64,000 nt of DNA, from IMG/VR virus record IMGVR_UViG_3300047509_000221, positions 1,949 through 65,948 of that record. The stretch is one strand, 5' to 3'. Origin of the DNA: a virus (taxonomy: Duplodnaviria; Caudoviricetes). A program made the position numbers and the translations under genes. The notes under the pieces are model-generated. The model searched no databases and had not been told where the DNA came from. It saw nothing but the letters and a program-made list of their open reading frames with translations. Positions 4,290 through 62,988 of the stretch are shown here, piece by piece; position 1 is the stretch's first letter, and every line of letters begins with the position of its first letter.

Positions 4290-4849
4290 TGCTCAATCTC
4301 TCTCCTCGCGTCTGCGGACATCTGGCCAATGGCCAGGTCGATCACCTGCCACATCGCGTCCTCGCGGGGCTGGTGGTGTGGGTCGAAGGCGTCGGTGGGC
4401 GGCTGGCCAGAGGGGCATAGAACCAGTGGTCGCCGCCCGCGCCAGTCGTCGCTGGGCCTCTTCTCAATGATGGTGGCCGTGACTTCACTGGACTCGCTCT
4501 CGTGGTACTCGCCGGCAGGGAAGATGTACACGCTGCCAGGCTGCATCTGGTACTCGCCAGTGACCCGAATGTCGCAGTGGTGGAGCAGCCTGTCCGGGCC
4601 ATCCTCCCCGGCCTCGTAGGCAGCATAGATGTTGCGCCACTCGGTGATCTCGTGCAACATGTAGGTGCGGTGGGTCAGGCATCCCACGAGCACCCGCGAC
4701 TGCATGTCCCACACGTGACAGTGTATGGTGGCGTTGTGGCCCTCGATGGGGGGCAGGGAGGGGTGCCAGATGTGGAGTCGCCTCTGCGCAGACAGAGGCA
4801 ACTGCACAAATCCGTTGCCATGGAAGCGGGGTCGTGGCTCTCTGGCCAT
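4274..4849 (-). CDS. cupin-fold protein
   Basis: RLHIW...IHCHVWDMQSRVLVG...YHES cupin motifs. Confidence 0.65.
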   Translation of the reverse strand: MAREPRPRFHGNGFVQLPLSAQRRLHIWHPSLPPIEGHNATIHCHVWDMQSRVLVGCLTHRTYMLHEITEWRNIYAAYEAGEDGPDRLLHHCDIRVTGEYQMQPGSVYIFPAGEYHESESSEVTATIIEKRPSDDWRGRRPLVLCPSGQPPTDAFDPHHQPREDAMWQVIDLAIGQMSADARREIEQCLTD

Positions 4850-10005: not shown

Positions 10006-12422
10006 TGGGTCTGTTCCAGCGAGTCTCCGCAGCCGTCCGCGAACGTATTGGAGCACGTCCCGAGAACCAGGGTGCGCGACAGGTGCCGCTGGAGACACCG
10101 ACTCAGGCACCTCCGCCTCCCGGCGCTGACACGCACGGCTGGTTCGGTGCCGGCGATCCGCCGTCGCCCGGTGCTCCGGCAGATGTCGCGGGCCGACGTC
10201 TCGACTACGTCCCCGGCGTCAACATGCTCCAGCAGCCTCGGCAGTACGAGGCAATTGGGTTCAATGAGCTGCGGGCACTGGCCGATGGGTACGACATCAT
10301 GCGGCTCATCATTGAGACGCGCAAGGACCAGATCTGTCGCCTGACGTGGACCATTGGTCCGATCAACGACGACAAGGAGATGACCGCCGAGCAGCAGGCC
10401 AGGGCGGAGAAGTACACGCAGCTGTTTCGCCGCCCAGATCGCAAGGAGTTCTGGGGCGACTGGATCAGGAACATTCTCGAGGACCTGATCGTCATCGACG
10501 CTCCCGCCATCCACGTGCGGCGCACGCTGGGCGGAGACGTCTACTCCCTCGACCAGATCGACGGGGCCACGATCAAGCGCGTCATCGACGACACCGGACG
10601 CTCGCCCGAGCCGCCGTTCGCGGCCTACCAGCAGATCCTCAAGGGCCTGCCGGCAGTGAACTACAGCACCCTCGACCTCATCTACCGCCCGCGCAACATG
10701 CGGGTGCACAAGCTGTACGGGTACTCGCCGGTCGAGCAGGTCATAATGACCGTGAACATTGCGCTGCGCCGTCAGATGTGGCAGCTGGCCTACTTCACGG
10801 ACGGCAACCTGCCGGACAGCCTCATCGGTGTTCCGAGCACCTGGACGCCCGACCAGATCAAGCAGTTCCAGGACTGGTTCGACAGTCTCCTGCAGGGCAA
10901 CCTCCAGGGTCGTCGCTCCGCCAAGTTCGTTCCCGGGGAGGTGGCCAAGAGCTACGTCCCCACCAAGGAGGCCGAGATGTTCGGCGCTGCCGAGGAGTGG
11001 ATGGCTCGCGTCGTCTGCTTCTGCTTCGGCATCTCGCACCAGCCGTTCGTGAAGGAGGTCAACCGGGCGACGGCCCACGCAGCCATGGACCAGGCCAAGG
11101 AAGACGGCATGGCCCCGATCATGAACTGGATCAAGGGGCTGCACGACTCCATCCTGATTGACTACTTCGGCGAGACAGAGCTGGAGTTCAACTGGAACGA
11201 CGACAAGGAGATGGACCCCAAGGTCCAGGCCGACATCCACAAGGAGCAGGTCGGCATCATCAAGACAATCAACGAGATACGCGACGATCTCGGACTGGAG
11301 CCGGACCCGAGCCCAATGGCCAGTGTTCTCGGCATGTTCGGCGTCGACGGCACGTTCACTCCTCTCGACCCAGACATCGCGATCGAGATGAAGCAGAAGA
11401 TGGTCACGGCATTCACCGGAATGGGTCTCGGGCCCACCGGCCAGGCACTTCCTGCTCCCCCGCCCACACCGGGTGCGGAGAACGACAACAACTCCGCCCA
11501 GAGTGGCGGCTCGGCGGCGGGGGGAGAGGGCGGCGGGTCCAGCAAGGAGCCGTCGTCCGCCCCGGCACCCAAGAAGATGGCCAAGGCGCTGCCGCTGACC
11601 TCGCCGCTGAGACCGAAGGCTGTCCGGCTGCGCAAGTCCATGCAGCACAAGGTCGCCGCTGTCCTGAAGACTGTCGGTGAGCAGGTCGCCCAGCACGTGC
11701 GGGTCGAGCTCGCTCGGCAGGGCATTGCGAAGGCCGATGACGGCGACAGCGCAATCCTGGACGCTGTCCTGTCGGGCATTAGCCTCGAGGGACTGGAGGC
11801 GCTGATTGACGCCACCTTCGGCGATCTTGAGCAGATGGGCAAGACCACCGGCAGCGAGGTCCTGGCACAGGTCGGCGTGGACGACCAGAGGGCGCTCGTG
11901 GACAGAGTGAGTCAGCGCGCGGTCGACTACGCCCGCGAGCGTTCGGCAGAGCTGGTCGGCAAGCGCGTCCTGGAGGATGGCACGATCATCGACAATCCGG
12001 ACGCCAAGTGGGCCATCACCGACACCACTCGCGGGATGATTCGCGACACCATTGCCGGCGCACTGGCAGACAACCTCGGGTCCGACGCCATCGTCGACGC
12101 GCTCGAGAACAGCTACGCCTTCTCGCCCGAGCGCGCGGAGATGGTGGGTCGCACCGAGATCGCCGCAGCCAACTCCGACGCCAACATGACCGCTCTCCAG
12201 GAGGCCTCCGACGCGGGCGTAAACCTCCAGAAGGCGTGGATCACGGGTCCCGACCCGTGCGAGGACTGCGTCGCCAACGAGGCAGACGGCAACATCGACA
12301 TAGACGACTCATTCTCCAGCGGTGACGACACCGCCCCGGCGCACCCCAACTGCGAGTGTGCCGTGGTGGGCATTGTCGTGAATGACGACACCGGCGAGGA
12401 GGAGGACGACAGCGAGGAGTGA
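10005..12422 (+). CDS. portal protein fused to a Mu gpF-like head morphogenesis domain
   Basis: Portal-like N-terminus (YGYSPVEQ); C-terminal RAEMVGRTE...KAW...C..C...PAHPNCEC. Confidence 0.85.
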   Translation: MGLFQRVSAAVRERIGARPENQGARQVPLETPTQAPPPPGADTHGWFGAGDPPSPGAPADVAGRRLDYVPGVNMLQQPRQYEAIGFNELRALADGYDIMRLIIETRKDQICRLTWTIGPINDDKEMTAEQQARAEKYTQLFRRPDRKEFWGDWIRNILEDLIVIDAPAIHVRRTLGGDVYSLDQIDGATIKRVIDDTGRSPEPPFAAYQQILKGLPAVNYSTLDLIYRPRNMRVHKLYGYSPVEQVIMTVNIALRRQMWQLAYFTDGNLPDSLIGVPSTWTPDQIKQFQDWFDSLLQGNLQGRRSAKFVPGEVAKSYVPTKEAEMFGAAEEWMARVVCFCFGISHQPFVKEVNRATAHAAMDQAKEDGMAPIMNWIKGLHDSILIDYFGETELEFNWNDDKEMDPKVQADIHKEQVGIIKTINEIRDDLGLEPDPSPMASVLGMFGVDGTFTPLDPDIAIEMKQKMVTAFTGMGLGPTGQALPAPPPTPGAENDNNSAQSGGSAAGGEGGGSSKEPSSAPAPKKMAKALPLTSPLRPKAVRLRKSMQHKVAAVLKTVGEQVAQHVRVELARQGIAKADDGDSAILDAVLSGISLEGLEALIDATFGDLEQMGKTTGSEVLAQVGVDDQRALVDRVSQRAVDYARERSAELVGKRVLEDGTIIDNPDAKWAITDTTRGMIRDTIAGALADNLGSDAIVDALENSYAFSPERAEMVGRTEIAAANSDANMTALQEASDAGVNLQKAWITGPDPCEDCVANEADGNIDIDDSFSSGDDTAPAHPNCECAVVGIVVNDDTGEEEDDSEE

Positions 12423-12461
12423 CCCTTCTCGTTAACCGACCCAGGGGTATGAGCTGAGCCC

Positions 12462-14276
12462 ATGACCACAGAGACACTGTCGCGCATCTTCATTCCGATC
12501 TGCAAGGTCGACGAGGAGAAGCGTCTCGTCTACGGAAAGATGACCTTCGAGGCCGAGGACGCGGCCGGAGAGATCTGGGACTACGATGGCTCGAAACCCT
12601 ACTTCGAGAAATGGTCCGAGAACGCGGAGAAGACTAGCGGCGGGAAGTCGCTCGGAAACCTCCGCGCCATGCACCAGCCCATCGCGGCCGGCAAGCTCAC
12701 CCAGTTCATCCTCAGCGACGAGGACAAGTCAGTCGAGATCGCCGCCAAGGTCGTCGACGACGCCGAGTGGAACAAGGTTCTCGAGGGCGTCTACACTGGC
12801 TTCTCGCAGGGCGGGCGCTACGTCAAGCGCTGGAAGGACCCCAACGACCCAACCAAGACCCGGTACATCTCAGACCCGGTGGAGTGCTCCATCGTCGATC
12901 TGCCGTGCCTGCCGGGGGCAACATTCGAGCACGTGAAGGCGGATGGCTCTGTGGAGATCCGCAAATTCATCACCAGGGAGACGGTCATGGACCCGACTAA
13001 CGAGCAGATTGAGGTGCGGGCCAAGGAGCTCGCCAAGGCAGCAGGCGACGAGGCCAAGTGGGCCGATCACGTTGAGGCAGCGCGCGACGATCTTGTTGCC
13101 AAGGCTGCGCCCGTGGTCGAGGAGCCAGTGGTTGAGGTGGCCCCTGTGGATGGCGAGCCGCGTGAGGCAGCAATCGAGGTCGAGAAGGTCGAGCAGCCCG
13201 AGGGCGGCGAGCCCACCGGCGAGGAAGAGGAGGCCCCGATCGAGGACTCCGCGACCGAGATCTCCGCCGAGGAGACCGAGAAGGCCCGCAAGGCTGCTCG
13301 TGATCGTCTCGCGCAGGTCTGGAAGACCAGCGACGGCAAGACGTTCGGCAAGTGTGATGAGGCCGTCACGCACGAGGCCACCCTGAGCGTCTCCCCGCCC
13401 AGCGCGGTCGAGGCTGCCCTCAAGGCTGCCAGGGGCGAGGAGCCCGCTGAGGAGGTCGCTGTCGAGAAGACCCGGTTCGAGCCGACCGAGGGCCTTGATG
13501 TCGCCAAGACTGTCATCGAGACATTCGTCGAGAAGGGTCTCTATGGCGCCAGCCGGGCGCTCCAGGTTCTCGACTCCGTGATCGACCTGCAGCACTGCAG
13601 CGCGTGGGAGGAGGAGTACGAGGGAGATGGCTCGGGTGTCCCGGCCGCTCTTGCCGACGCCGCTCGCTCGCTCGGTGCGGCCGCACTGGCCATGTGCCAG
13701 GAGGAGATCGCCGAGGCGCTGTCCGACCTTGGCGGGGACGAGGTCGAGATTGACGTCTACCTTTCCGAGAACGAGATCCTTGTCGAGAATGCCGCCGCGA
13801 CCGAGTTCGTCAAGGCCGTCTATGCCGACGAGGAGCTCATGAAGGCTGGGGCGCGCAACAGCAAGAAGGATGCCGACACCATCCAGAAGATGCACGATGG
13901 CGCGGTCGATCTCGGTGCCAAGTGTGCCATGGGCGATGAGGAGAAGGCCCTCGAGCCCGACGAGCTCCAGAAGCGGGCCGAGAGGGACCCCGTGGTCAAG
14001 CACCTGCTCGATCGGAACGTCGAGCTGTCGGCCGAGGTCGAGAAGGCGCTCGCCGGTATTGGTGAGCTCGGGGAGCAGATCAAGGTCCTCAAGGCGACGC
14101 CAGCGCCCATGGCTCCGCGCACCCATGTCATTGGGAAGAACGACAGTCCGGACGAGATGGACATCGCCAAGGCGGAAAACATCGTGGCAGAGCTCAGCAA
14201 GACCCAGGATGGTCGGCGAGTTCTGACCGAGGCGGCCATTCGTGCCTCGCAGGCAGCTGGGGGGCATGCAGCATAG
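12462..14276 (+). CDS. prohead protease/scaffold protein
   Basis: KVDEEKRLVYG, LRAMHQP, YTGFSQGG, ECSIVDLP; acidic coiled C-terminus. Confidence 0.8.
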   Translation: MTTETLSRIFIPICKVDEEKRLVYGKMTFEAEDAAGEIWDYDGSKPYFEKWSENAEKTSGGKSLGNLRAMHQPIAAGKLTQFILSDEDKSVEIAAKVVDDAEWNKVLEGVYTGFSQGGRYVKRWKDPNDPTKTRYISDPVECSIVDLPCLPGATFEHVKADGSVEIRKFITRETVMDPTNEQIEVRAKELAKAAGDEAKWADHVEAARDDLVAKAAPVVEEPVVEVAPVDGEPREAAIEVEKVEQPEGGEPTGEEEEAPIEDSATEISAEETEKARKAARDRLAQVWKTSDGKTFGKCDEAVTHEATLSVSPPSAVEAALKAARGEEPAEEVAVEKTRFEPTEGLDVAKTVIETFVEKGLYGASRALQVLDSVIDLQHCSAWEEEYEGDGSGVPAALADAARSLGAAALAMCQEEIAEALSDLGGDEVEIDVYLSENEILVENAAATEFVKAVYADEELMKAGARNSKKDADTIQKMHDGAVDLGAKCAMGDEEKALEPDELQKRAERDPVVKHLLDRNVELSAEVEKALAGIGELGEQIKVLKATPAPMAPRTHVIGKNDSPDEMDIAKAENIVAELSKTQDGRRVLTEAAIRASQAAGGHAA

Positions 14277-14363
14277 ACCCACCGGCGACGGGCGGTCATT
14301 AAGGAAGTGAGTGTATCAACCAAGAAGCCGGGCCAAGATGGCCCTGATGGGGGTAATTGAGTC

Positions 14364-15839
14364 ATGGAAACCAATATTCAGGAGCTGATGGAAGCAATGC
14401 GCAAGGCGCAGCGCATTCCTGATCCGCTCGGCGGAGAGGTCGCGAAGTCGACGTTCTCCCAGTCGGGCTCGCCAACCACTGGCCTGACGTTCTACGACCT
14501 CGAACCGGGAGCGAAGTTTCTCTACCCGGTCCTGACGCCGCTGCGCAACAGCATCCCGCGCGTCAGTGGTCGCGGAGGCACGCAGGCGAACTGGAAGGCA
14601 GTCACCGGCGTCAACACGCAGAACATGGAGATCGGCGTCTCCGGCGGAAACCGTGGCGGTGTGCAGGCAGTCAGCACGGCTGACTACAACGCAGCCTACA
14701 AGGGCATCGGCCTGGAGACCAGCGTCGACTTCGAGGCCCAGTACGCGGCCCAGAACCTCGTCGACGTGCGCGCCATCGCTGGCCGTACCGGCCTCGAGGC
14801 GACCATGCTCCGCGAGGAACTCCTCATCTTTGCCGGCAACGGCTCGCTCCAGCTCGGCATTCCGGCGACCCCGGCGCTGACTGGCTCGACCACGGGCGGA
14901 ACGCTCGCGGCGCAGACCTGGTCGGTCATCGTCGTGGCTCTCACGCTCGCTGGCTACCTAAACGCCACGATCGCTGGCGGTGCTCCGGTGACGGTGACTC
15001 GCACGAACGCGGACAGCTCGAGCGACACCTTTGGCGGTGGCTCCTCGCAGAAGTCTGCGGCCCAGACGGTCGTCACGACCGGCGCGACGAGCTCGATCGT
15101 TGCGACTGTCGCCGCCAAGCGCGGCGCGGTGGCCTATGCCTGGTACTACGGCACGGCGGGCAACGAGGTCCTCGGCGCCATCACCACTGCCCCGACAGCG
15201 ACGCTGACGGCGGCGGCGGCAGGCACCCAGAATGCCTCGACATTCGCGGCCGACAACAGCACGAACAGCCTCATCTTCGACGGCCTGTTCACGCAGGCAG
15301 CCAAGTCGGGCAGCAATGCCTACTGGGCCGATCTCGCGGGCGGAACTCTGACTGCCGACGGCGACGCCGGCATCGTGCAGATCGACGCGGCGCTGAAGTA
15401 CATGTGGGACAATTTCCGGCTCACCCCGGACACCATGTGGGTCAACAGCCAGCAGGCGGGCGACATTGCCAAGAAGATCCTGGCGGGCAACGCCAACGGA
15501 GCCTTCCGCATCAACGTCGACCAGTCGCAGGGCATGCTCGTCGGTGGTGTCATGGCCACTGCGTACCTCAACAAGTACGTGATGGGCGGTGCCTCGAAGA
15601 TCGACATTAAGATTCATCCGAACTGCCCTCCGGGCCTGATTCTGATGACCTCGAAGTCGCTTCCGTACCCGGTCAACAACGTCGGCAACATCATGCAGGT
15701 CCTCTGCCGACAGGACTACTACCAGATCGAGTGGCCGCTTCGCAGCCGCCGCTACGAGTATGGCGTCTACGCGGATGAGGTGCTCCAGCACTACGCTCCG
15801 TTCTCGATGGCCATCATCACGGGCATCGGCGCAGGCTGA
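14364..15839 (+). CDS. major capsid protein
   Basis: Position after the protease; YDLEP...LYPVLTPLRNSIPRV and C-terminal GVYADEVL..YAP. Confidence 0.85.
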   Translation: METNIQELMEAMRKAQRIPDPLGGEVAKSTFSQSGSPTTGLTFYDLEPGAKFLYPVLTPLRNSIPRVSGRGGTQANWKAVTGVNTQNMEIGVSGGNRGGVQAVSTADYNAAYKGIGLETSVDFEAQYAAQNLVDVRAIAGRTGLEATMLREELLIFAGNGSLQLGIPATPALTGSTTGGTLAAQTWSVIVVALTLAGYLNATIAGGAPVTVTRTNADSSSDTFGGGSSQKSAAQTVVTTGATSSIVATVAAKRGAVAYAWYYGTAGNEVLGAITTAPTATLTAAAAGTQNASTFAADNSTNSLIFDGLFTQAAKSGSNAYWADLAGGTLTADGDAGIVQIDAALKYMWDNFRLTPDTMWVNSQQAGDIAKKILAGNANGAFRINVDQSQGMLVGGVMATAYLNKYVMGGASKIDIKIHPNCPPGLILMTSKSLPYPVNNVGNIMQVLCRQDYYQIEWPLRSRRYEYGVYADEVLQHYAPFSMAIITGIGAG

Positions 15840-15854
15840 TAACCCCATGGGACT

Positions 15855-15882
15855 GGAGGCCCGGCTGCAAGGTCGGGCCTCT
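15855..15882 (+). terminator. hairpin after the capsid gene
   Basis: GGAGGCCCGGC-TGCAAG-GTCGGGCCTC inverted repeat. Confidence 0.5.
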
Positions 15883-15963
15883 GGCCTCTGGTGAGGGCTG
15901 GCAAAGGTCCACTTCGCTCCGCCAGCCCTCTCCTGAGTCCAGACCGCCAAGGGAGACGACGAC

Positions 15964-16440
15964 ATGAAGATGCAGGCACCAGAGGGCGTCACCAACGCTG
16001 CTGTCGAGAACGACAAGTACGAGGTCGACGAGAATGGCCACATCGAGATCAACAACGGGGAGCACATTCCCGTGCTCGAGATGCACGGCTTCACCCAGGT
16101 GGCCGACGAGGCTGGCGCAACGCAGAGTGAGCCCGAGCCTGCGGACCCGGTCGGTCCCAAGCCGGACTTCACCCGGTTCCAGAACAAGCAGTCGCTGCTC
16201 GACTGGCTCCTGCACTTCGGCCACCACAGTGCCGACATCAACTCCTCGCGTGCCGAGCTCGAGGCCACCTGCGACGCCCACCACGCCGCTCTCGCCAGCG
16301 GCGAGGCCGAGCTCCCCGAGCCTCCGGCACCGGTCGAGCCTGCCCCCGAGGAGATCGCTCCTGTGGACCCCGCTCCTGTGGACCCCGCTTCGGAGGTTGT
16401 TACCAATGAGGACCCCGAGGCTGCGCCCAGCGCAGAGTGA
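15964..16440 (+). CDS. virion-associated hypothetical protein
   Basis: GGGAG RBS; acidic, Pro-rich C-terminus. Confidence 0.65.
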   Translation: MKMQAPEGVTNAAVENDKYEVDENGHIEINNGEHIPVLEMHGFTQVADEAGATQSEPEPADPVGPKPDFTRFQNKQSLLDWLLHFGHHSADINSSRAELEATCDAHHAALASGEAELPEPPAPVEPAPEEIAPVDPAPVDPASEVVTNEDPEAAPSAE

Positions 16441-16448
16441 GGGCTTGA

Positions 16449-17237
16449 GTGAGGGGTGACCTGACCAGACTGGCAAGTGTGCAGGGATGGCTCTCGGGCC
16501 AGACCACGATTTCCAGCGACAATGACTCACTCCTCCAGCGTCTCATCACCTCGGCCTCGATGTTCACGCGCAATCACATCGCGCGCGAGATCGCGGTCAT
16601 GCCGTACGACGAGTGGTACGACTGCGGAGGGCAGAACTTCATCTCTCTGCGCCAGTTTCCCGTTCGGGGGGTCACCTCCGTGCAGTTCTGCGGCAACGAG
16701 GTCCTGACCGAGGCCACTGGCAATCCTCCGATCGGGGGCTGGCTCCTGAGCCCGCCCACGCGGCTGGAGATGCGCGGATGGCGCTTCCCGAGCGGGCGCA
16801 GCGTGATCCGCGTCCAGTACTCCGCCGGATACGCCACAGACGCCGAGGCACAGGTCGTGCCGTCCATGGCTCCCTACACGGTGCAGACCAGTCTCGTCTG
16901 GCTGGGTGACATCGCCGTCACCCTCGCCAACGGGACGCCCCTGACCGCCGTGCCGTCCTCGCCCGGCGCGCTCCAGTACTCCGTCGACAGCAGCGGGAAC
17001 TACACCTTCAACGTGGCCCAGCAGGGTGCCTCCGTGCTCATCTCCTACTCGAGCGTCCCCCCGGACCTGGAGCAGGCGGTCATCGAGCTTGTCGGAGAGC
17101 GCTTCCGGCAGCTGGGGCGCATCGGGCTCAACTCCCAGTCGCTGGCGCAGGGCGAGACCGTCAACTATCTCGTCAAGGACATGAGCGACAACATTCGCAC
17201 CACCCTGGAGCGATACAAGAACCAGGGGGCGTGGTAG
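16449..17237 (+). CDS. head-tail adaptor protein
   Basis: DSLLQRLITSAS...YSAGY...VPPDLEQAVIELV. Confidence 0.8.
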   Translation: MRGDLTRLASVQGWLSGQTTISSDNDSLLQRLITSASMFTRNHIAREIAVMPYDEWYDCGGQNFISLRQFPVRGVTSVQFCGNEVLTEATGNPPIGGWLLSPPTRLEMRGWRFPSGRSVIRVQYSAGYATDAEAQVVPSMAPYTVQTSLVWLGDIAVTLANGTPLTAVPSSPGALQYSVDSSGNYTFNVAQQGASVLISYSSVPPDLEQAVIELVGERFRQLGRIGLNSQSLAQGETVNYLVKDMSDNIRTTLERYKNQGAW

Positions 17238-17238
17238 G

Positions 17239-17730
17239 ATGCTGCGGATCACCCTCGTCGGTACTCAGGAGCTCATGGCTCGCCTGGACCGAATGCCCGC
17301 CGCCGTGAGGTCCATCCTCGAGACAAAGATGCGCGAGATTGCCATCCAGCTGCAGACGCACGTGCAGCGGGACAAGCTGTCCGGGCAGGTACTGAACGTC
17401 GTCACCGGAGCTCTCCGCAGGTCCATCACCCAGACGGTCTCTTCCTTCGGCGACACCGTCGTGGCCGAGGTCTTCTCTGCCGGCGACGTCAAGTATGCTG
17501 GCATCCACGAGTACGGCGGCCAGACCCAACCTCACGACATCTACCCTAAGAGCGCCGACGCGCTCCACTTCATGATTGGCGGGCAGGAGATCTTCGCCAA
17601 GGTCGTCCACCATCCCGGCTCGCGCATGCCCGAGCGCTCGTTCCTGCGCTCTGCCCTCGGCGACATGGCTCCGACCATTGCCGAGGAGATTCAGCAGGCG
17701 GTCGTGCAGGGGATGGATGAGGCCACATGA
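17239..17730 (+). CDS. neck/tail completion protein (HK97 gp10-like)
   Basis: TGALRRSI...YAGIHEYGG...MPERSFLRSAL. Confidence 0.8.
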   Translation: MLRITLVGTQELMARLDRMPAAVRSILETKMREIAIQLQTHVQRDKLSGQVLNVVTGALRRSITQTVSSFGDTVVAEVFSAGDVKYAGIHEYGGQTQPHDIYPKSADALHFMIGGQEIFAKVVHHPGSRMPERSFLRSALGDMAPTIAEEIQQAVVQGMDEAT

Positions 17731-18179
17731 ACCGCGAGGCAATCTTTGCTGCTCTGTACGCCCTCGGCTCGGTGGTCGAGTGGGACAGTCCGCCTCGCAC
17801 CTTCAAGACGATCTCGCGCCGGGTGCAGCACTTCTCCAAGTGCGCTGACCAGCCAGCCTTCTTCCAGGTGGAGCGGGACGAGAAGATCGAGCAGATCACC
17901 GGCATGCCGTACAAGACACGCCTCGAGGCCGTCTGGATGGTGTACCAGAACACCGGCAAGGACCCGAAGGCGGTGCCGGCGACAGAGAACAACCTGATCC
18001 TGGACGCGCTGCAGGCGGTCGTCAGCCCCAAGTTCGTGGCCGGAGAGCAGTACGTCGACCGATGCACGCTGGGCGGCCTCGTCTACGACTGCAAGATCAG
18101 CGGCACGATCACCAAGTACGACGGGGCACTCGAGAATCAGGGCATCGTTGTGGTGCCGCTCGAGATACTGGTTCCGTAG
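17727..18179 (+). CDS. tail terminator-like protein
   Basis: Gene order; TLGGLVYDC motif. Confidence 0.65.
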   Translation: MNREAIFAALYALGSVVEWDSPPRTFKTISRRVQHFSKCADQPAFFQVERDEKIEQITGMPYKTRLEAVWMVYQNTGKDPKAVPATENNLILDALQAVVSPKFVAGEQYVDRCTLGGLVYDCKISGTITKYDGALENQGIVVVPLEILVP

Positions 18180-18196
18180 ATTAAGGAGCAGAGACT

Positions 18197-18514
18197 ATGG
18201 GTAACGACAAGGTAAAGAGCCCTGTGGAGGACGCCACAGCGTCGGCAGCCGCCGCCGCTACCCCCGTCGACTCGGAGCTCTTGCTGACGCCTGGAGACGA
18301 CTCCAGCGCGTCTGGTGTTATCTCGGGGGCGGAGCACGCCGTCGAGGAAACTCTTGCGGAGGTCCACACGGAACTCAGCAGGGCGGAGCAGGTCGTGGTG
18401 TCGTGGTGCAATGAGCACTTCTTCAACTCGCCCATCTCCCGTGCAACCGAGGCCCTGAACTATCTGCGATTGCATGCAGTTCCGGACCTCATCGAAAGAG
18501 TGAAGGAGCTCTAG
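18197..18514 (+). CDS. hypothetical protein
   Basis: AAGGAG RBS; lies between neck and tail-tube genes. Confidence 0.6.
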   Translation: MGNDKVKSPVEDATASAAAAATPVDSELLLTPGDDSSASGVISGAEHAVEETLAEVHTELSRAEQVVVSWCNEHFFNSPISRATEALNYLRLHAVPDLIERVKEL

Positions 18515-56602: not shown

Positions 56603-57079
56603 TTAGGAGCCCTTGCGCAGGACGCGCTCAGCCACGGTCGGGGCCGTCTGGGGCGGGGCCTCCACGCGCTCTCTGGGCGTCGAGGCGAGGGTGGATATCG
56701 CCCCGAGAAGAGAGCGCTCGGCGTCCACCTGCCTCGTCGTCGACCCGCCGAGATTGTAGGACAGGTGCGTGAGCCTGCGACCCTGTCGCCTCGCCTTGCG
56801 GCCGATGCTGCGGCGGGCCTGCTCGCCTATTCTGGGCACTTCGGTAGACGTCATCTTGCGAATACCGAGGCCACGCACAGTCTCGAACCGCATCCCAGTC
56901 CGACGCTCAACGTGCCTCCGGGCCTGGATGAGGGAGTAGCTGCTGGCGTCTATGGGACACTTCGCGACGTCGGCCAGTAGGACGTAATCCGCGATGGCGT
57001 CCATTGACAACTCAGACAGCACCTGAGACAGGGCTGCTATCTCTCGCTGTCTGGTGGGGTTCTTCCTGAACTGGATCAT
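56603..57079 (-). CDS. putative winged-helix-like accessory protein of the RAMP/pentamer-array locus
   Basis: AGGAGAG RBS; basic protein; FETVRGLGIRK wing-like hairpin. Confidence 0.65.
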   Translation of the reverse strand: MIQFRKNPTRQREIAALSQVLSELSMDAIADYVLLADVAKCPIDASSYSLIQARRHVERRTGMRFETVRGLGIRKMTSTEVPRIGEQARRSIGRKARRQGRRLTHLSYNLGGSTTRQVDAERSLLGAISTLASTPRERVEAPPQTAPTVAERVLRKGS

Positions 57080-57097: not shown

Positions 57098-57167
57098 GCG
57101 TTGCGGTGTGGTGCGCGGTGCGGTACGGTGACGTGTGGCGCCGCGTCGCTACGCGAAGCGTAGCTTG
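57098..57167 (-). ncRNA. pentamer array D (14 units), putative guide RNA
   Basis: All 14 units start with G on + (gcgtt gcggt gtggt gcgcg gtgcg gtacg gtgac gtgtg gcgcc gcgtc gctac gcgaa gcgta gcttg). Confidence 0.7.
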
Positions 57168-57168
57168 C

Positions 57169-57720
57169 TCAATCCCACTTGAAATTGCTGACCTCGTATC
57201 TTCCGAAGTATCCCCCCCGCTCGGGACGGAAGCGTCCGACCCCGACGGCGAGCCCGGCATAGCGAACTGCCTCCTCGAACACGTCAGGAGTGATCTCGTC
57301 GGCCAGGACGTGGAACTGGACCACTCCGTCCCAGTCGTCGATGCGGGGGAAGGTGCGCCACACGCGCTTGCCGGAGCCGCGAACACCGTCGGCGTTGGCA
57401 TGAATGCGCTCGGGCTGAATTTCGTCCTCACTGGCAATTGGCACGTTCTTCGTGACAATGACGCCGCTCTCGAAGAACTTGGTGTAGGTGGACTTGCCCT
57501 TGCCGGGTATCTGACGCCCCAGCATCTTGGCGGCTCGGTCGACGCCCATCTTGAAGGCCATCGCAGGAACGACGACCATGCCATTCTCGATGTGGGCCTT
57601 CTGCCTCCAGGTGCGCTTCTCGTAGTCGTCGGGCGTCTCTCTGTTCAGCTTCTCGGCGCAGTGTGCGCGACTGGCACTGTACGGTGCCTGTCCGACAAAG
57701 GTAACGGTGCAAGTTCTCAT
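57169..57720 (-). CDS. stand-alone Cas7/RAMP-like protein
   Basis: N-terminal beta strand VTFVGQAP, VPAMAFK, and C-terminal Gly-rich loop AGLAVGVGRFRPERGGYFGRYEV typical of RAMPs. Confidence 0.7.
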   Translation of the reverse strand: MRTCTVTFVGQAPYSASRAHCAEKLNRETPDDYEKRTWRQKAHIENGMVVVPAMAFKMGVDRAAKMLGRQIPGKGKSTYTKFFESGVIVTKNVPIASEDEIQPERIHANADGVRGSGKRVWRTFPRIDDWDGVVQFHVLADEITPDVFEEAVRYAGLAVGVGRFRPERGGYFGRYEVSNFKWD

Positions 57721-57744: not shown

Positions 57745-58170
57745 GCGTTGCATGGTAATGCCGAGTGTGGAGCAGCGAAGCCCTGCGTTGCGTGGAGGAG
57801 CGTAGCCTCTTGGTGCATGACAACGCGACACGTGGTGGGGCGCTGTGTTGCATCGCGCCGTGGTGCTCAGCGTTGCGATGTGGGGCAGATGGTGCGTCGC
57901 GGTGAGAGGCGCTGCGGGGCGAGGCCCTGCGTAGTGCGGCGTCGCGCAGCGCAGTGGAGTGTTGCGATGCTCTGCGATGCGCAGCAAAAAGTAGGAGGGG
58001 ACGAGGCTCTGCGTTGCGATGCCATGCGGGACACTGCGGGGCGGGGCTACGCGGGACGTCGCGCAGCGGTGCGGTGAGCAGGGCAGAATTGCGTTGCGGT
58101 GCTGCGTGCAGCGGTGCGCAGAGACGCGCAGCGCCGCTGGGCCAAGAGGCGAGTAGCGCAGCGAGGACTC
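57745..58170 (-). ncRNA. pentamer arrays A (57745-57889), B (57894-57988) and C (58001-58170); putative guide RNAs
   Basis: 82 units in 5-nt phase, consensus GCG-NN on + (NN-CGC on -); 76 of 82 begin with G. Confidence 0.8.
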
Positions 58171-58214: not shown

Positions 58215-59108
58215 TCATCCCATGCTCTCGATCATCTCGGCCAGCAGCCGCTTGTCCTCTACCTCCTGCTCGACCATCACGTCCCAGGCCTCCTCGTCGC
58301 GGATGCGCATGACCGCGTCCCGAATGAGGTCCTGGATGACCTGTGGGTCCAGAGCGTCGAGCTCCCACGACTCCTCCCCGTACAGGTCCCTGTAGGACGC
58401 GAACCGGGAGTCATTCTCCTTGGCTGGGTTGGGCGGGGGAGAGTACTGCTCGATCTGGTCCATGTTGAGCGCTAGGCGGCTGACCATGACGGGGACGCCC
58501 GCGTACAGGCTCAGCTTCTCCGCGTTGCTCTCGGTCATGTGGATTCCGCTCGGGTCGTGGTCGCCGAGGTGGAAGACGATCGGGCGCTGGCCCCGCTGGA
58601 TGTAGTCCGCGAAGCGTCGCCCGGCGCGCCAGTGCTCGCTCGTGGAGTTGTAGCCCTTCTGGGCGTAGAAGTCCACCTCGAGCCGGTTGCATATCTGGCC
58701 GACCACGCCCTCGAGCGCCTGCTTCTCGACCCAGACCTCCGGCCGGAACGGCTGGTTGGCCCACTTGTCGATGCTGTACCCGGCGAGCGCGTCCCGGAGC
58801 ACCTGCGCCGGGCTCGTCTGGTGGTTCAGTCCCATCAGGTTGCGGCCCCGGTCCTCGATCGCCGTCCACGAGATCAGGCCGACGTTCCGGCCGGTGTTGA
58901 TCGCGCCCTGGATGCGGTCGTAGGTGGCCCCGGTGTTGGGCATCCACCCGCGCTGGACGAACTGGTAGTGAATCTGGCGAACGGTCAGGGTGAAGCCCTT
59001 CTGCTCGTACTCGCCGACGACGTGGTTGATGCGCCCGATGAGGTCGACGGTGACTGACCGGAGGTTCCGCTCCTCGTACGCGATGTAGAGGCCGGTGTCC
59101 TCAGTCAC
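58215..59108 (-). CDS. TOPRIM-domain protein (Topo VI-A/JetD-like)
   Basis: TVRQIHYQFV, EVWVEK, HLGDHDPSG, RLALN..QI, WELDAL. Confidence 0.75.
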   Translation of the reverse strand: MTEDTGLYIAYEERNLRSVTVDLIGRINHVVGEYEQKGFTLTVRQIHYQFVQRGWMPNTGATYDRIQGAINTGRNVGLISWTAIEDRGRNLMGLNHQTSPAQVLRDALAGYSIDKWANQPFRPEVWVEKQALEGVVGQICNRLEVDFYAQKGYNSTSEHWRAGRRFADYIQRGQRPIVFHLGDHDPSGIHMTESNAEKLSLYAGVPVMVSRLALNMDQIEQYSPPPNPAKENDSRFASYRDLYGEESWELDALDPQVIQDLIRDAVMRIRDEEAWDVMVEQEVEDKRLLAEMIESMG

Positions 59109-59340
59109 GACTCTCGGCCTCCTGCTTGCGGACAATCTGCCGGGCTCTCCGGCCCTTGACGTCCAGAAAGCGCTCGCGGCCCATCCGGGCCACGGTCAGC
59201 GGAAACTTTGTCTGCCCCAGCAGTCTCTCGGTGTGATCCTTCGGGCGCAGGGCCACCAGGATGACGCGGTCGCGGTGTCGGCAGACGCGGTACGTGCGTC
59301 CACGATCACGAACATAGGTGTTGGTGATTGGGCTAGTCAT
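59101..59340 (-). CDS. hypothetical protein
   Basis: Basic ORF downstream of predicted promoter TTTACA-N17-TACATG. Confidence 0.5.
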   Translation of the reverse strand: MTSPITNTYVRDRGRTYRVCRHRDRVILVALRPKDHTERLLGQTKFPLTVARMGRERFLDVKGRRARQIVRKQEAESRD

Positions 59341-59710: not shown

Positions 59711-60733
59711 TCATCCGATCACTCCCGCCACCTTGCGCTCTCCGGCCTGCTGGTCGATGCCGACGGAGTCGCCAGCTTCGTAGCCCGCGCGGTAGGCTCC
59801 CCAGTCGCGCTGCTTCTCCGAGCCCGTGCCGGCGTTCGAGGACCGCTTGCGCTCGGCCTTGCGGCGCTCCTCCTCCTGCGCGGCGGCCTCCTCGGGGTGG
59901 GCGGCTGCCCAGCGGGTGTACTCCTCCTGAGCCTCTCGCTTGCGACGGGCGCGCTCGGCCCTCTCATATCTCTGCTGCGCCGACCAGCCCTCTCCCATGA
60001 CGAAGTCCATGTTGGCGTCTTCCTCCGTCTTGCGGAGGTCGGCCAGAGTCATGGCGGTCGCAGTGCTGACTCCCGCCATCCCTGCCTCGCGGACGCGGCG
60101 CTCCTCGTCCAGGGCGCGCTGGCGCTCCTCGGATATCTGGGTCTGGCGGCGGTCCCACAGCTTCTCGGCAATCCTCTCGGCGATGCCCTCGCGGAAGGAG
60201 ACGGCCCAGCGGCTGCGCAGCTGGGTATTGACGGATTCAGTCACGCCTTCTTCATGAAGACGTGACCGAGTCAGTCTCTCGATCGTGCCGAGCAGGTACT
60301 GGGCCATCGTCCGCGTCGCCTGGATATTGTGCAGACGCCCGATGATCTTGAACTCGCCCCGGAGAATGTGCGTCCGGCGGAACGGGTCCAGAATTCGGAG
60401 CGCCTTCGCATCAAGGCGCTCCCTCTTCACCCAGTGCTTCTGGTGCCAGCAGAGGCAGAAGTTGAGCTCGGCGATGCGACTCCAGAGATCGCGCTCGTAC
60501 TCGTAGAAGCCCCCGACCAGCCGCTCCTCGGCCCGGCGTCCGCCGCCCTCGCCCGTCTCGTCCACGGACGCGAGGGTGAGGTTAAGGTCGGCCAGCATGG
60601 CCATGGCCTTGGCCGTCGCGGCGGCGGCCTCGTGCTCGTTGGGGTTCCGTCCGGCGAGGCGCAGCAGCTTCTCGACAGTGTCGAGTCCGGCGCGCTGCTC
60701 CTCAGTGAGCTGGTCGGTGGTCAAGCGTCGCAC
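59711..60733 (-). CDS. DUF2786-domain protein
   Basis: VEKLLRLA...NEHEAAAATAKA..M; SFREG; AYRAGYEAG. Confidence 0.75.
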   Translation of the reverse strand: MRRLTTDQLTEEQRAGLDTVEKLLRLAGRNPNEHEAAAATAKAMAMLADLNLTLASVDETGEGGGRRAEERLVGGFYEYERDLWSRIAELNFCLCWHQKHWVKRERLDAKALRILDPFRRTHILRGEFKIIGRLHNIQATRTMAQYLLGTIERLTRSRLHEEGVTESVNTQLRSRWAVSFREGIAERIAEKLWDRRQTQISEERQRALDEERRVREAGMAGVSTATAMTLADLRKTEEDANMDFVMGEGWSAQQRYERAERARRKREAQEEYTRWAAAHPEEAAAQEEERRKAERKRSSNAGTGSEKQRDWGAYRAGYEAGDSVGIDQQAGERKVAGVIG

Positions 60734-61469: not shown

Positions 61470-61780
61470 AGGTCGCCCTCCCTCAGCTGCTGGTTGCGCC
61501 CGGCATCGTCCTCCGGCACGAACCTCTCAGTGTCGATGGTCCGGGCTGGCTGCGTGCGGTTGGGGCGCGGGTACTGCGTGCCCAGCGGCATCGACGGAAT
61601 GTCCCCGAAGAAGGCGTGGCCGTCCTGGTACTTGCCGGCGATCTCGGCAGCCGTGACCCAGCGGTCAAAGACCGGGGCGAGCTCCAGGTTGTCATCTGGC
61701 ATCTCCACGAACCAGCGCTGGCAGGCAGGCCGCCAGGCGACCACGCAGCGCCGCGCCCTCACGCAGCCCTCTCGTCCCAC
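61466..61780 (-). CDS. hypothetical protein
   Basis: Fills the gap between flanking genes. Confidence 0.4.
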   Translation of the reverse strand: MGREGCVRARRCVVAWRPACQRWFVEMPDDNLELAPVFDRWVTAAEIAGKYQDGHAFFGDIPSMPLGTQYPRPNRTQPARTIDTERFVPEDDAGRNQQLREGDL

Positions 61781-62988
61781 TGGGCGAGGTCCTCGTCCAC
61801 CAGATGGTGGGCGTCGCTCTCCATCCAGTCGTAGTCGTCGTGCCCGAACTCGGTCTCGACCACGCCGAGGTACAGCCGGAGGTAGTCCTCGGCAGCCCGC
61901 GCGGCCTCCCCCCGCCCCATGTCGGGGCAGCGGGCCTCGTATCTGTCGGCCATCCAGCCGACGAACTGGGCGCGGCTCTGCCGCCTGCCCATCATCTGCT
62001 CGAACGAGGTCCAGACCTGCGGCCAGGAGCCGCGCGTGGCGGCCTTGCTGTACTCGGTGGCTCGCGTCTCGAAGAAGTTGGCGTGCTCGACACCGCTCAG
62101 GAGCGGCTGGAGCCAGACAGACACCGGGTCATCAGTGACTCCGAAGAGCGGGGGTAGTCGAAGCTGGTGCAGGCGCCAGTCCGCAATGCGGCGGATGTAG
62201 AGCTTCATCTCGGCGGCGGAGAGGCCCTCGACCTCGCCGCCAGAGGCCTCGAACGCGAGGTCGACGAACGCATCCTCCAGGCGTACCTGCGTCGCGAAGA
62301 CGTCCATGATGTCGCTCTCGACCTGCTTAGTCCTACCTCCGGTCTCCTGGGCAAGTGTGTGGTGCAGGCGGATGATGCCGTCGCAGTGGAGGCTCTCGTC
62401 GCGCACTGACCAGGTCACGATCTGCCCCATGCCCTTCATCAGGCGTCGGCGCGGGAAGTGCATCAGCATCGCGAAGCTGGCGAACAGGGAGAGGCCCTCG
62501 GTCGCGCCGCCGAACATGGCAGTGGTGCGGAGAATGTCGTCGACGCTGCCGACCCCGAAGGTCTCCATGTAGTCGGCCTTGGCGGCCATGGCCTCGTAGT
62601 TACGGAAGGCGCTGAACTCCTCGTCGGGCATGCCGACGGTGTCCAGCAGCAGCGAGTAGGCCAGGATGTGGATGGTCTCCATGGACGCGAAGGCCGAGAG
62701 CATCATCTTGACCTCGGTTGGCCGGAAGACCTGCGCGTATCGCTCCAGATAATTGTCGTTGACCTGCACGTCGGACTGCGTGAAGAAGCGGAATATCTGC
62801 GTCAGCAGCCCGCGCTCACCGTCTGTCAGGCGCCCGCCCCAGTCCCGGACATCGTCGGCCAGCTGGGCCTCCTCGGGCGTCCAGTGGATGCGGTGCTGCT
62901 GCCGGCAGTACTCGACTGCCCAGGGATACATGTACGGGCGGAAATTGGCGCTGGGCCGCAGAAGGCCAGGAAGTCTACTCGTCGACAC
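61759..62988 (-). CDS. nrdB: ribonucleotide reductase class Ia beta subunit with C-terminal extension
   Basis: FRFFTQSD, ETIH..AY, EGLSLFASF, WSVRDESLH, HANFFE.RATEY. Confidence 0.92.
   Translation of the reverse strand: MSTSRLPGLLRPSANFRPYMYPWAVEYCRQQHRIHWTPEEAQLADDVRDWGGRLTDGERGLLTQIFRFFTQSDVQVNDNYLERYAQVFRPTEVKMMLSAFASMETIHILAYSLLLDTVGMPDEEFSAFRNYEAMAAKADYMETFGVGSVDDILRTTAMFGGATEGLSLFASFAMLMHFPRRRLMKGMGQIVTWSVRDESLHCDGIIRLHHTLAQETGGRTKQVESDIMDVFATQVRLEDAFVDLAFEASGGEVEGLSAAEMKLYIRRIADWRLHQLRLPPLFGVTDDPVSVWLQPLLSGVEHANFFETRATEYSKAATRGSWPQVWTSFEQMMGRRQSRAQFVGWMADRYEARCPDMGRGEAARAAEDYLRLYLGVVETEFGHDDYDWMESDAHHLVDEDLAQWDERAA

What the first reader, a model, noticed from the sequence alone, without database searches (positions are those of the whole stretch)
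57894..57988. Array block B decodes to a conserved DNA-methyltransferase motif (LGSLYRSQHELI)
Seen: NN = TC GT AG CT GG AG CT TA CG TC CA CA GA TT AT CT AT CA AA, giving S-V-[S/R]-L-G-[S/R]-L-Y-R-S-[Q/H]-[H/Q]-[E/D]-[L/F]-[I/M]-L-[I/M]-[Q/H]-[K/N]. From memory of the family, G(M/L)GSLYRSQHEL...K is a typical segment of N6/N4 DNA methyltransferases, often ParB-fused, in alphaproteobacterial prophages and MGEs. A third recognisable motif in the same strand and phase makes a chance reading less likely, although the matching was post hoc. Inference: this guide targets a competing prophage or MGE gene.
Basis: partly seen in the sequence, partly recalled or inferred. Interest (0 to 1): 0.85.

Follow-up and report, generated by a model that had tools for sequence, protein, structure and literature searches.

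The report
VIPR guide array against methylase gene
This stretch is part of a phage's VIPR guide-RNA array, a recently described RNA-guided gene-silencing system, and its variable letters spell the first two bases of each codon of a conserved DNA-methylase motif found in rival mobile elements of Alphaproteobacteria.

Summary

It lies in a roughly 420-base period-5 array directly upstream of a 183-aa gene (57169-57720, minus). That protein folds as a Cas7-like RAMP and matches the solved SUSP1 Vipr protein by profile (E 9.8e-9). This is a VIPR system as described in 2026 preprints: the NN pairs read a DNA target while skipping every third base.

Ten consecutive units of block B, written NNx, gave 42 exact hits in 596 Gb of genomes. 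About 1 is expected, and the reversed-order control gave 0. All 42 lie in frame on the same motif, GSLYRSQHE followed by L or F; the 5 ORFs tested are ParB_N and/or N6_N4_Mtase proteins. The best natural matches reach 30 of 34 guide bases.

Ten units of block A hit a terminase large-subunit motif (46 exact hits), about 1.8-2.0 kb downstream of the methylase motif on the same strand. Two guides therefore converge on one element.

Blocks C and D have no target found. The transcribed strand, RNA ends and actual silencing are inferred, not shown. Verdict: a new member of a known kind, with a CGC/NN rather than GGY/NN repeat.

The parts
57169..57720 (-). vipr gene: 183-aa RAMP (Cas7-like) protein, the presumed filament subunit that binds one repeat unit each
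   Evidence: A profile of 25 homologues hits PDB 36pp_D 'SUSP1 Vipr protein' at E 9.8e-9. AlphaFold model pLDDT 94.1. Top Foldseek hits are Cas7 of type VII, Csm3 and Cmr at E 2e-7, prob 1.0. A C-terminal glycine-rich loop is conserved.
57894..57988 (-). Array block B (the finding): 19 units, GCG+NN on the + strand, which is CGC+NN on the gene strand; strand assignment is probable, not shown
57914..57973 (-). Core of guide B (units 4-15). The NN pairs equal codon positions 1-2 of the peptide GSLYRSQHELIL in ParB-fused N6_N4 DNA methylases; unit 18 (57984-57988) also matches the conserved K.
   Evidence: The 10-unit pattern gave 42 exact hits, all in frame. The 12-unit run is exact in L042, L053, L054 and L188. 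Best match is 30 of 34 bases over units 2-18.
57745..57889 (-). Array block A: 29 period-5 units. Only units 10-19 have a target; units 20-28 may be the tail of guide B.
   Evidence: the tail idea is an inference.
57795..57844 (-). Guide A (units 10-19). The NN pairs equal codon positions 1-2 of DYSVCTTWGL in the nuclease domain of a terminase large subunit.
   Evidence: 46 exact hits in genome contigs, all in frame. The ORFs are Terminase_6C in 5 of 5 tested.
58011..58170 (-). Array block C: 32 period-5 units, no target found
   Evidence: 0 hits.
57098..57167 (-). Array block D: 14 units between vipr and the downstream 158-aa gene, no target found
   Evidence: 0 hits.
56603..57079 (-). 158-aa gene, a candidate vipr-accessory gene (vap), probably a winged-helix DNA binder
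   Evidence: A homologue lies next to vipr in 7 of 25 related loci. Model pLDDT 80.2 with helix-strand-helix-helix-strand-strand order. Only weak fold hits (best E 0.05), many of them winged-helix and other transcriptional regulators. No Pfam, PHROG or NCBIfam hit.
57989..58010 (.). 22-base non-repeat spacer between blocks B and C; blocks A and B are separated by only 4 bases (57890-57893)

Best explanation
The finding is one guide of a VIPR (Viral Interference Programmable Repeat) locus in a roughly 66-kb soil phage.

Proposed mechanism, by analogy with the published systems:
- The intergenic DNA on both sides of the vipr gene is transcribed, most likely on the gene's own (minus) strand, into RNAs made of five-base units: three near-constant bases (C-G-C on that strand) followed by two free bases.
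- One Vipr protomer (a small Cas7-like RAMP) binds each unit, hides the constant triplet and presents the two free bases.
- The presented dinucleotides pair with double-stranded DNA while every third target base is skipped. A guide therefore reads codon positions 1 and 2 and ignores the wobble position.

What is shown by sequence:
- Guide B reads the conserved motif GSLYRSQHELIL..K of ParB-fused N6/N4 DNA methylases.
- Guide A reads the DYSVCTTWGL motif of a terminase large subunit encoded about 1.8-2.0 kb downstream in the same elements of Alphaproteobacteria.

The expected effect is transcriptional silencing of a competing resident element's methylase-terminase module, with no escape by synonymous mutation.

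Shown here: the repeat anatomy, the Vipr homology and fold, the codon-register matches and their controls, and the co-location of the two targets. Inferred: transcription, strand, RNA ends, filament formation, silencing, and which element is the real target.
For: Anatomy:
- The period-5 array occurs only around this gene in the genome.
- 22 of 25 related IMG/VR loci passed the array filter, with the G-rich side on the strand opposite vipr. The simpler scan also flagged a few weak runs on the gene strand.
- Over 1679 units the composition is G 90%, C 70%, G 87%, then two near-equiprobable bases.

Protein:
- Profile hit to the solved SUSP1 Vipr, E 9.8e-9, over the thumb and G-loop.
- Confident model with Cas7, Csm3 and Cmr as top folds.

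Published mechanism:
- Read in 10.64898/2026.04.26.720920 (Results, Discussion, Methods parts 1-2) and 10.64898/2026.04.26.720927 (Results part 1).

Targets:
- Guide B, 10 units: 42 exact hits in genome contigs and 4 in viral contigs. All 42 are in frame. PF01555 in 5 of 5 ORFs.
- Reversed unit order: 0 hits.
- An independent sample of 50 PF01555 stretches was chosen by Pfam score. True order reached a maximum of 10 of 15, with 3 loci at 9 or more. 500 shuffles gave a mean maximum of 7.1, a highest value of 9, and a mean of 0.01 loci at 9 or more. Skips of 0, 2 and 3 gave 8, 7 and 7.
- Best natural match is 30 of 34 bases (88%) over units 2-18 and 32 of 38 over all 19 units. This is above the paper's 80% criterion.
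- Guide A: 46 exact in-frame hits. Terminase_6C in 5 of 5 ORFs.
- 16 of 46 guide-A loci have a B-like motif (8 or more of 19 units) 1.79-2.0 kb upstream on the same strand.
- No self-target at 8 of 10 or better in the phage's own genome. The phage has no PF01555 gene.
Against: - No full-length exact target was found. The 12-unit pattern that included unit 3 gave 0 hits, and 15 units gave 0 in metagenome contigs. The matches may therefore be to relatives of the true target, reached through motif conservation.
- Units 0-3 and 16-17 of block B, units 0-9 and 20-28 of block A, and all of blocks C and D have no match.
- The constant triplet is not the published GGY.
- The window's blocks are 19-32 units long with almost no spacers, unlike the published 9-16 repeats plus a roughly 40-nt tail.
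- RNA boundaries are unknown and no expression data exist.
- The SUSP1 residues that hold G1 and G2 (D177, R138, W178) are replaced here (R163, F124, F164).
Confidence: 0.86

Rival explanations
1. Chance or post hoc reading: the array is real, but its resemblance to a methylase motif is an accident of decoding a G-rich repeat.
For: The decoding has many two-fold ambiguities. Block C also 'looks' protein-like (a G-rich GLGGTGS-type string) yet has no hit in any scan, which shows how easily such strings look meaningful.
Against: Block B gave 42 exact DNA-level hits against 0 for the reversed-order control and about 1 expected, all in one frame on one motif. A second block does the same on the neighbouring gene. 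Shuffle and skip-length controls on an independently chosen methylase set also favour the true order.
Confidence: 0.02
2. A protein-binding regulatory leader without guide function. An oligomeric RNA-binding protein, as in TRAP with its triplet-plus-2-nt-spacer sites, would bind the constant triplets to control expression of the flanking genes, and the NN bases would be mere spacers.
For: Triplet plus two-base spacer geometry; the arrays sit in 5' and 3' untranslated positions of the gene. This was my first reading.
Against: Spacers with no function would not reproduce 10-12 consecutive codon prefixes of two adjacent genes of foreign elements. The protein is a RAMP related to a solved Vipr, not a TRAP-like ring.
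Confidence: 0.03
3. A VIPR locus, but the RNA is made from the + strand (GCG/NN, antisense to vipr), so the guide would pair with the template strand of the methylase gene.
For: The published constant triplet is G-rich (GGY), and the + strand here is the G-rich one. Hairpins in relatives' spacers fold on either strand.
Against: - Read on the vipr strand, the base just before NN is a pyrimidine in 5 of 5 triplet variants of this protein clade (CGC, CTC, AAC, GAY, GAC). Read on the other strand it is so in only 3 of 5. The published pocket for that base excludes purines.
- CNNCG fits the paper's 'YNNNG' class.
- In L013 and L014, 3 of the 4 folded spacers have as their first hairpin 3' of the repeats a UUCG or GAAA loop on the vipr strand only; the fourth spacer has neither loop.
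- Shuffle z-scores are more negative on the vipr strand in 5 of 6 structured spacers.
- SUSP1 vrRNA1 and vipr were cloned as one unit behind one promoter (paper Methods).
Confidence: 0.12
4. A VIPR locus whose real targets are not the methylase and terminase of a rival element. The matches would then be decoys, fossils of past conflicts, or hits on host-domesticated islands such as gene-transfer-agent-like loci.
For: No exact full-length target was found. The hit elements carry no recognisable capsid or portal genes next to the terminase: 0 of 10 ORFs in two genomes had a PHROG hit. In a third genome a serine recombinase follows. The host of this phage is unknown.
Against: Two guides converge on adjacent genes in the same orientation. 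[quoted passage not shown]
Confidence: 0.15

Closest known systems
VIPR systems (Vipr protein plus vrRNA), type II of Escherichia phage SUSP1 and a Pseudomonas fulva prophage (bioRxiv 10.64898/2026.04.26.720920, 10.64898/2026.04.26.720927, 10.64898/2026.10.15.759431)
   Same: - A small RAMP protein flanked by intergenic arrays of pentanucleotide units with three conserved and two hypervariable bases.
- NN pairs match foreign coding DNA with one base skipped, wobble-aligned.
- Several guides converge on one mobile element.
- No self-targets.
- A small neighbouring gene that looks like a winged-helix DNA binder.
   Different: - The constant triplet is CGC (or GCG on the other strand), not GGY.
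- The SUSP1 residues contacting G1 and G2 are replaced (D177 to R, W178 to F, R138 to F); R179, which contacts the pyrimidine, is kept.
- The blocks have 19-32 units with 4- and 22-base gaps, instead of 9-16 repeats plus a roughly 40-nt pseudoknot tail.
- The targets are a ParB-methylase motif and a terminase motif in alphaproteobacterial elements, not a satellite recombinase or prophage regulators.
- I could not place the locus in the paper's seven types, because the figures and supplements were not visible.
Class 1 CRISPR backbone proteins (Cas7, Csm3, Cmr4; type VII Cas7)
   Same: Best structural matches of the protein. The published Vipr work describes the same RNA-binding mode, with the thumb breaking the guide-target duplex periodically.
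   Different: The contig scan found only the period-5 arrays; cas genes and CRISPR repeats were not searched for specifically. The guide is periodic (2 of 5 bases read) rather than a contiguous spacer, and the target period is 3 rather than 6.
TRAP-type RNA sites (triplet repeats separated by 2-3 nt; recalled, no call)
   Same: Five-base period with a conserved triplet.
   Different: The protein fold is different (RAMP), and the 'spacer' bases carry sequence information.

Membership tests
VIPR system | A Vipr protein: a small RAMP with RRM core, thumb and glycine-rich loop, related to known Viprs | tested here: met
   Profile E 9.8e-9 to PDB 36pp_D SUSP1 Vipr. Model pLDDT 94.1. Cas7, Csm3 and Cmr are the top folds, E 2e-7. 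The motif G.GRFRPE.GG..GR is conserved.
VIPR system | Intergenic tandem pentanucleotide units flanking vipr, with three conserved and two hypervariable positions | tested here: met
   Found in 22 of 25 related loci by the filter, with different NN strings in each.
VIPR system | Constant triplet GGY (YNNGG), or one of the paper's listed alternatives NNNGG, YNNNG, NNNNG | tested here: inconclusive
   GGY itself is not met. The unit is CGC/NN on the gene strand, that is CNNCG, which fits 'YNNNG' only if the RNA comes from that strand. The paper's fig. S17 with the logos was not visible.
VIPR system | NN pairs match foreign DNA under the 1-nt skip rule, with the skip on the codon wobble position and at least 80% NN match | tested here: met
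   Guide B: 42 exact 10-unit hits, all in frame; best 30 of 34 bases; skip 1 beats skips 0, 2 and 3. Guide A: 46 exact hits in frame. Not met for blocks C and D.
VIPR system | No self-targeting of the source contig | tested here: met
   No 10-unit window with 8 or more matches anywhere in the 65,948-base genome, on either strand (block D was read 2 bases out of phase in that call).
VIPR system | Conserved structured 3' tail after the repeat tract | tested here: inconclusive
   Relatives have 33-83-nt conserved spacers, some with hairpins. The window has only 4- and 22-base gaps. Part of block A may serve as a tail (inference). Rfam found nothing, including no hammerhead.
VIPR system | vrRNAs are expressed and co-purify with Vipr; the target is repressed | not testable with these tools
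   No RNA run holds the stretch. No bench data.
VIPR system | Accessory vap gene next to vipr | tested here: inconclusive
   The 158-aa neighbour is conserved beside vipr in 7 of 25 loci. Its winged-helix-like model has only weak fold hits. Its relation to the published vap1-6 was not tested.
N6_N4_Mtase (PF01555), the target gene of guide B | The ORF carrying the matched motif scores above Pfam's gathering cut-off | tested here: met
   5 of 5 ORFs tested scored 83-112 bits against a cut-off of 26.7. 4 of 5 also have ParB_N, two of them just below its cut-off of 26.3. In a further genome, phrog_498 DNA methyltransferase at E 1.5e-107.
Terminase large subunit (Terminase_6C, PF17289), the target gene of guide A | The ORF carrying the matched motif scores above Pfam's gathering cut-off | tested here: met
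   5 of 5 ORFs tested scored 40-56 bits against a cut-off of 22.6. phrog_38 terminase large subunit at E 1.9e-100.

The most novel reading that the evidence does not exclude
This Vipr clade may show that the 'constant' part of the VIPR code is itself evolvable. Within one protein family the triplet is CGC, CTC, AAC or GAY/GAC on the gene strand. Only the pyrimidine next to NN is fixed, and the changes go along with changes in the G-loop (GRFR, GTFR, GSLR, GFFR).

If each protein loads only its own repeat type, co-infecting phages would run mutually orthogonal guide systems that rivals' solo guides cannot hijack.

In addition, the methylase-small ORF-terminase module hit by two guides may belong to a terminase-carrying satellite-like island of Alphaproteobacteria rather than to a full prophage.
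Probability: 0.3. Interest if true: 0.7.

Novelty: new member of a known kind. Interest (0 to 1): 0.5.

Why it matters
VIPR was described only in 2026 preprints, and there mainly for enterobacterial and Pseudomonas systems. This locus adds three things.

First, it is a natural soil-phage example in which the wobble-skipping code can be read directly against public genomes. Two guides are aimed at highly conserved motifs of a DNA methylase and of a terminase, residues that a rival is unlikely to change without cost.

Second, it gives a repeat variant, CGC/NN, with matching substitutions at the positions that hold the two guanines in the solved SUSP1 structure. That is useful for working out how Vipr proteins recognise their own repeats and for building orthogonal tools.

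Third, it shows that such guides can be recognised from raw sequence alone.

It does not change the known mechanism.

Tried and rejected
- **First working idea:** a TRAP-like protein-binding leader. I dropped it.
- **Search for the exact target of guide B:** units 3-14 gave 0 hits in genome contigs and viral contigs, because unit 3 does not match the M, or in one locus Q, that 40 of the 42 later natural hits carry there. Units 4-18 gave 0 in metagenome contigs. Units 4-15 gave 1 (L188).
- **Block C:** units 2-12 gave 0 in genome contigs. Units 3-12, 12-21, 22-31 and 18-27 gave 0 in viral contigs. Units 2-14 and 18-31, with up to 3 mismatches, gave 0 in five whole genomes that carry the A and B targets.
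- **Block D:** units 2-11 gave 0 in viral contigs. In some searches, block D was read 2 bases out of phase (start 57096 instead of 57098), so those D rows are void.
- **Local scans:** 40-80 kb around six target loci showed no match at 8 of 10 or better for block C or for the rest of block A.
- **Relatives' arrays:** none carries these two guides. One unexplained 8-unit hit came from L012.
- **Rfam:** only a sub-threshold snoRNA row and no ribozyme.
- **Promoter and terminator scan:** nothing useful.
- **Sequencing runs:** no RNA holder listed; one DNA run of a soil metagenome, possibly the source, holds the stretch.
- **Spacer folds:** folding relatives' spacers on both strands did not decide the strand by energy alone.
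- **Material I could not see:** supplementary files and figures of the VIPR papers, so the seven-type classification, the repeat logos (fig. S17) and the staggered-array layout (fig. S18, legend only) could not be compared. They may already cover CGC/NN repeats.
The DNA-level test stands in for it.

Full report
**1. The observation**

Window 57894-57988 consists of 19 head-to-tail five-base units. On the + strand each unit starts with GCG or a close variant and ends with two free bases. The stated decoding into codon prefixes is reproduced.

**2. The array as a whole**

The stretch is the middle block of a larger period-5 array that fills the gap between two minus-strand genes:
- block A, 57745-57889, 29 units;
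- block B, 57894-57988, 19 units;
- block C, 58011-58170, 32 units;
- block D, 57098-57167, 14 units, on the other side of the 183-aa gene 57169-57720.

The blocks are separated by phase shifts of 4 and 22 bases.

The window is nearly the whole of a 65,948-base IMG/VR virus record that CheckV rates complete. A simple hidden-Markov segmentation found such arrays nowhere else in it, and none occurs with GCGNN on the minus strand.

A search with the 183-aa protein brought in 25 related viral loci at 37-77% identity. 22 of them passed the array filter, with period-5 arrays close to or on both sides of the homologous gene and the G-rich side on the strand opposite to the gene. A simpler scan flagged 18 loci on that strand, plus weak runs on the gene strand in five. 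The other three loci have period-5 arrays with a different constant triplet.

Over 1679 five-base units the + strand composition is G 90%, C 70% (T 15%, A 13%), G 87%, then two positions close to equal use of all four bases. The priors of my model colour these figures somewhat.

**3. The protein**

Pfam, PHROGs (one family of unknown function) and NCBIfam gave no name. A single-sequence search of the PDB gave a weak row for 36pp_D, 'SUSP1 Vipr protein' (E 1.4). A profile of the 25 homologues raised this to E 9.8e-9 over the thumb and glycine-rich loop.

The AlphaFold model is confident (pLDDT 94.1). Its best Foldseek matches are Cas7 of type VII CRISPR, Csm3 and Cmr subunits (E 2e-7 to 1e-5, probability 1.0). 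That fold library ends on 2026-04-08 and showed no Vipr entry.

**4. What is known**

A literature search on 'Vipr' led to three 2026 preprints.
- 10.64898/2026.04.26.720920: I read the abstract, Results, Discussion, the first two parts of Methods, and passages with supplementary figure legends.
- 10.64898/2026.04.26.720927: abstract and the first part of Results.
- 10.64898/2026.10.15.759431: abstract and eight passages.

They describe VIPR systems as follows. A small RAMP protein, Vipr, polymerises on a vrRNA made of pentanucleotide repeats (GGY plus NN), one protomer per repeat. It hides the GGY and presents the NN. The NN pairs read double-stranded DNA with every third target base skipped, the '1-nt skip rule'. 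Natural targets are mostly coding sequences of rival phages and satellites, and the skipped base falls on the wobble position.

The Methods also mention repeat forms NNNGG, YNNNG and NNNNG, staggered arrays, and accessory vap genes that look like DNA binders or nucleases.

**5. Testing block B against nature**

- Units 4-13 written as NNx gave 42 exact hits in genome contigs and 4 in viral contigs.
- For 20 specified bases in 596 Gb, both strands, I expect about 1.1 by chance (my arithmetic).
- The same units in reversed order gave 0.
- All 42 hits lie in the same frame on the same peptide, GSLYRSQHE followed by L or F. By record title most come from Alphaproteobacteria.
- Five carrier ORFs were put to Pfam. 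5 of 5 are N6_N4_Mtase, 83-112 bits against a cut-off of 26.7, and 4 of 5 also have ParB_N; two of those four ParB_N hits score just below Pfam's cut-off.
- Three genome loci (L042, L053, L054) and one metagenome locus (L188) match 12 consecutive units plus the conserved K at unit 18.
- At base level the best natural sequences match 30 of 34 bases over units 2-18 and 32 of 38 over all 19 units. This is above the 80% used in the paper.

Because these loci were picked by my own pattern, I repeated the test on 50 PF01555 stretches chosen by Pfam score from 61 alphaproteobacterial genomes. Of these, 30 are top-scoring loci and 20 are lower-scoring domains picked by me from the list for a domain length near 630 bases.
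- With the true order of units 4-18, the best match was 10 of 15 and 3 loci reached 9 or more.
- In 500 shuffled orders the mean maximum was 7.1, the highest was 9, and the mean number of loci at 9 or more was 0.01.
- Skips of 0, 2 and 3 bases gave maxima of 8, 7 and 7.

The phage itself has no PF01555 gene and no site matching any guide at 8 of 10 units.

**6. A second guide on the neighbouring gene**

Scanning the 42 methylase loci with block A showed its units 10-19 matching a motif 1.77-1.95 kb downstream on the same strand in seven of them. An eighth locus, L036, has the motif about 1.0 kb upstream instead.

As an NNx pattern these ten units gave 46 exact hits in genome contigs. All are in frame on DYSVCTTWGL, inside the conserved context QSWD(T/P/V)A....DYSVCTTWGL. 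5 of 5 carrier ORFs tested are Terminase_6C.

16 of the 46 loci have a B-like motif (8-11 of 19 units) 1.79-2.0 kb upstream. Two guides that sit side by side in the phage thus read two genes that sit side by side in the same class of element. This is the convergence reported for natural VIPR targets.

In one genome the module reads ParB-methylase, a small ORF (phrog_26239), terminase large subunit, two unknown ORFs, then a large serine recombinase. In two other genomes none of 10 ORFs downstream of the terminase had a PHROG hit. The element may therefore be an island or satellite rather than a full prophage. This is open.

**7. What did not match**

Units 0-3 and 16-17 of block B, units 0-9 and 20-28 of block A, and all of blocks C and D found no partner. 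The true targets may be absent from the collections. Alternatively, parts of the 'blocks' may be tails rather than guides.

**8. Strand and architecture**

Relatives show more classical layouts, with 11-17 units followed by conserved 33-83-base spacers. In L013 and L014, three of the four folded spacers have as their first hairpin after the repeats, read on the vipr strand, a UUCG or GAAA loop; the fourth has neither loop. Shuffle z-scores favour that strand in 5 of 6 structured spacers, though both strands fold.

Relatives with another G-loop carry other constant triplets. On the vipr strand these are CTC (L010, L011), AAC (L020), GAY (L021) and GAC (L025), against CGC here. On that strand the base before NN is a pyrimidine in all five variants. 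On the other strand it is so in three of five.

The solved SUSP1 structure holds that base in a pocket that excludes purines. The arginine that stacks on it (R179) is invariant in this family (R165), whereas the residues that hold the two guanines are replaced: D177 to R163, W178 to F164, R138 to F124 (paper Results). I therefore think the RNA is made from the minus strand as CGC/NN, that is CNNCG, which fits the paper's 'YNNNG'. No RNA data exist to show it.

If that is right, the guide bases are complementary to the coding strand of both target genes.

**9. Accessory gene**

The 158-aa gene downstream of vipr (56603-57079) has a homologue beside vipr in 7 of 25 relatives. The topoisomerase-like gene upstream of the array has a homologue in none of the 25. 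The model of the 158-aa protein (pLDDT 80.2) has a helix-strand-helix-helix-strand-strand order. Its fold hits are weak (E 0.05 and above) and many are winged-helix and other transcriptional regulators. It is a candidate vap, no more.

**10. Verdict**

The finding is a VIPR guide. The kind is known from 2026 preprints, so this is a new member.

It has some features of its own:
- a CGC/NN repeat;
- long, nearly spacer-free blocks;
- guides against methylase and terminase motifs of alphaproteobacterial elements.

Transcription, RNA ends, filament formation and silencing are inferred by homology, not shown.

Noticed in passing
L010, L011, L020, L021, L025 (related IMG/VR loci), arrays listed: Homologues of the same Vipr protein with a different glycine-rich loop carry period-5 arrays with other constant triplets on the gene strand: CTC, AAC, GAY and GAC. 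The forms without a G are not among the repeat forms named in the paper's Methods.
   Followed up: partly
L118 (G010:C17) 11404-18512; L122, L127: The targeted module is ParB-methylase, a small ORF (phrog_26239) and a terminase large subunit. No recognisable portal or capsid genes follow it: 0 of 10 ORFs in two genomes had a PHROG hit. In one genome a large serine recombinase follows it. This may be a terminase-carrying island or satellite.
   Followed up: partly
window 58215-59135 (-): The gene upstream of the array matches phrog_6247, 'DNA topoisomerase' (E 3e-95). At DNA level it is the only part of this region shared with named phages (Pseudanabaena Pam3, Rhizobium RHph_TM26, Roseobacter RDJL phages, Pseudomonas PaMx25-like phages). 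It is not linked to vipr in the relatives.
   Followed up: no
L012, array at 4587-4772 (reverse-strand coordinates): An 8-unit window of a relative's array matched 2-4 places in the methylase and terminase loci, decoding to DKLYGGSV. This was not examined further.
   Followed up: no
window 57745-58170 and relatives: Many arrays begin, on the G-rich strand, with the units GCGTT GCGTT or GCGTT GCGNT. TT is the commonest NN pair, 237 of 1679. The first one or two units may be a fixed end of the RNA rather than part of the guide.
   Followed up: partly
window 59711-60733 (-) and 61759-62988 (-): Neighbouring phage genes: a DUF2786/DUF7168 protein and a ribonucleotide reductase small subunit.
   Followed up: no
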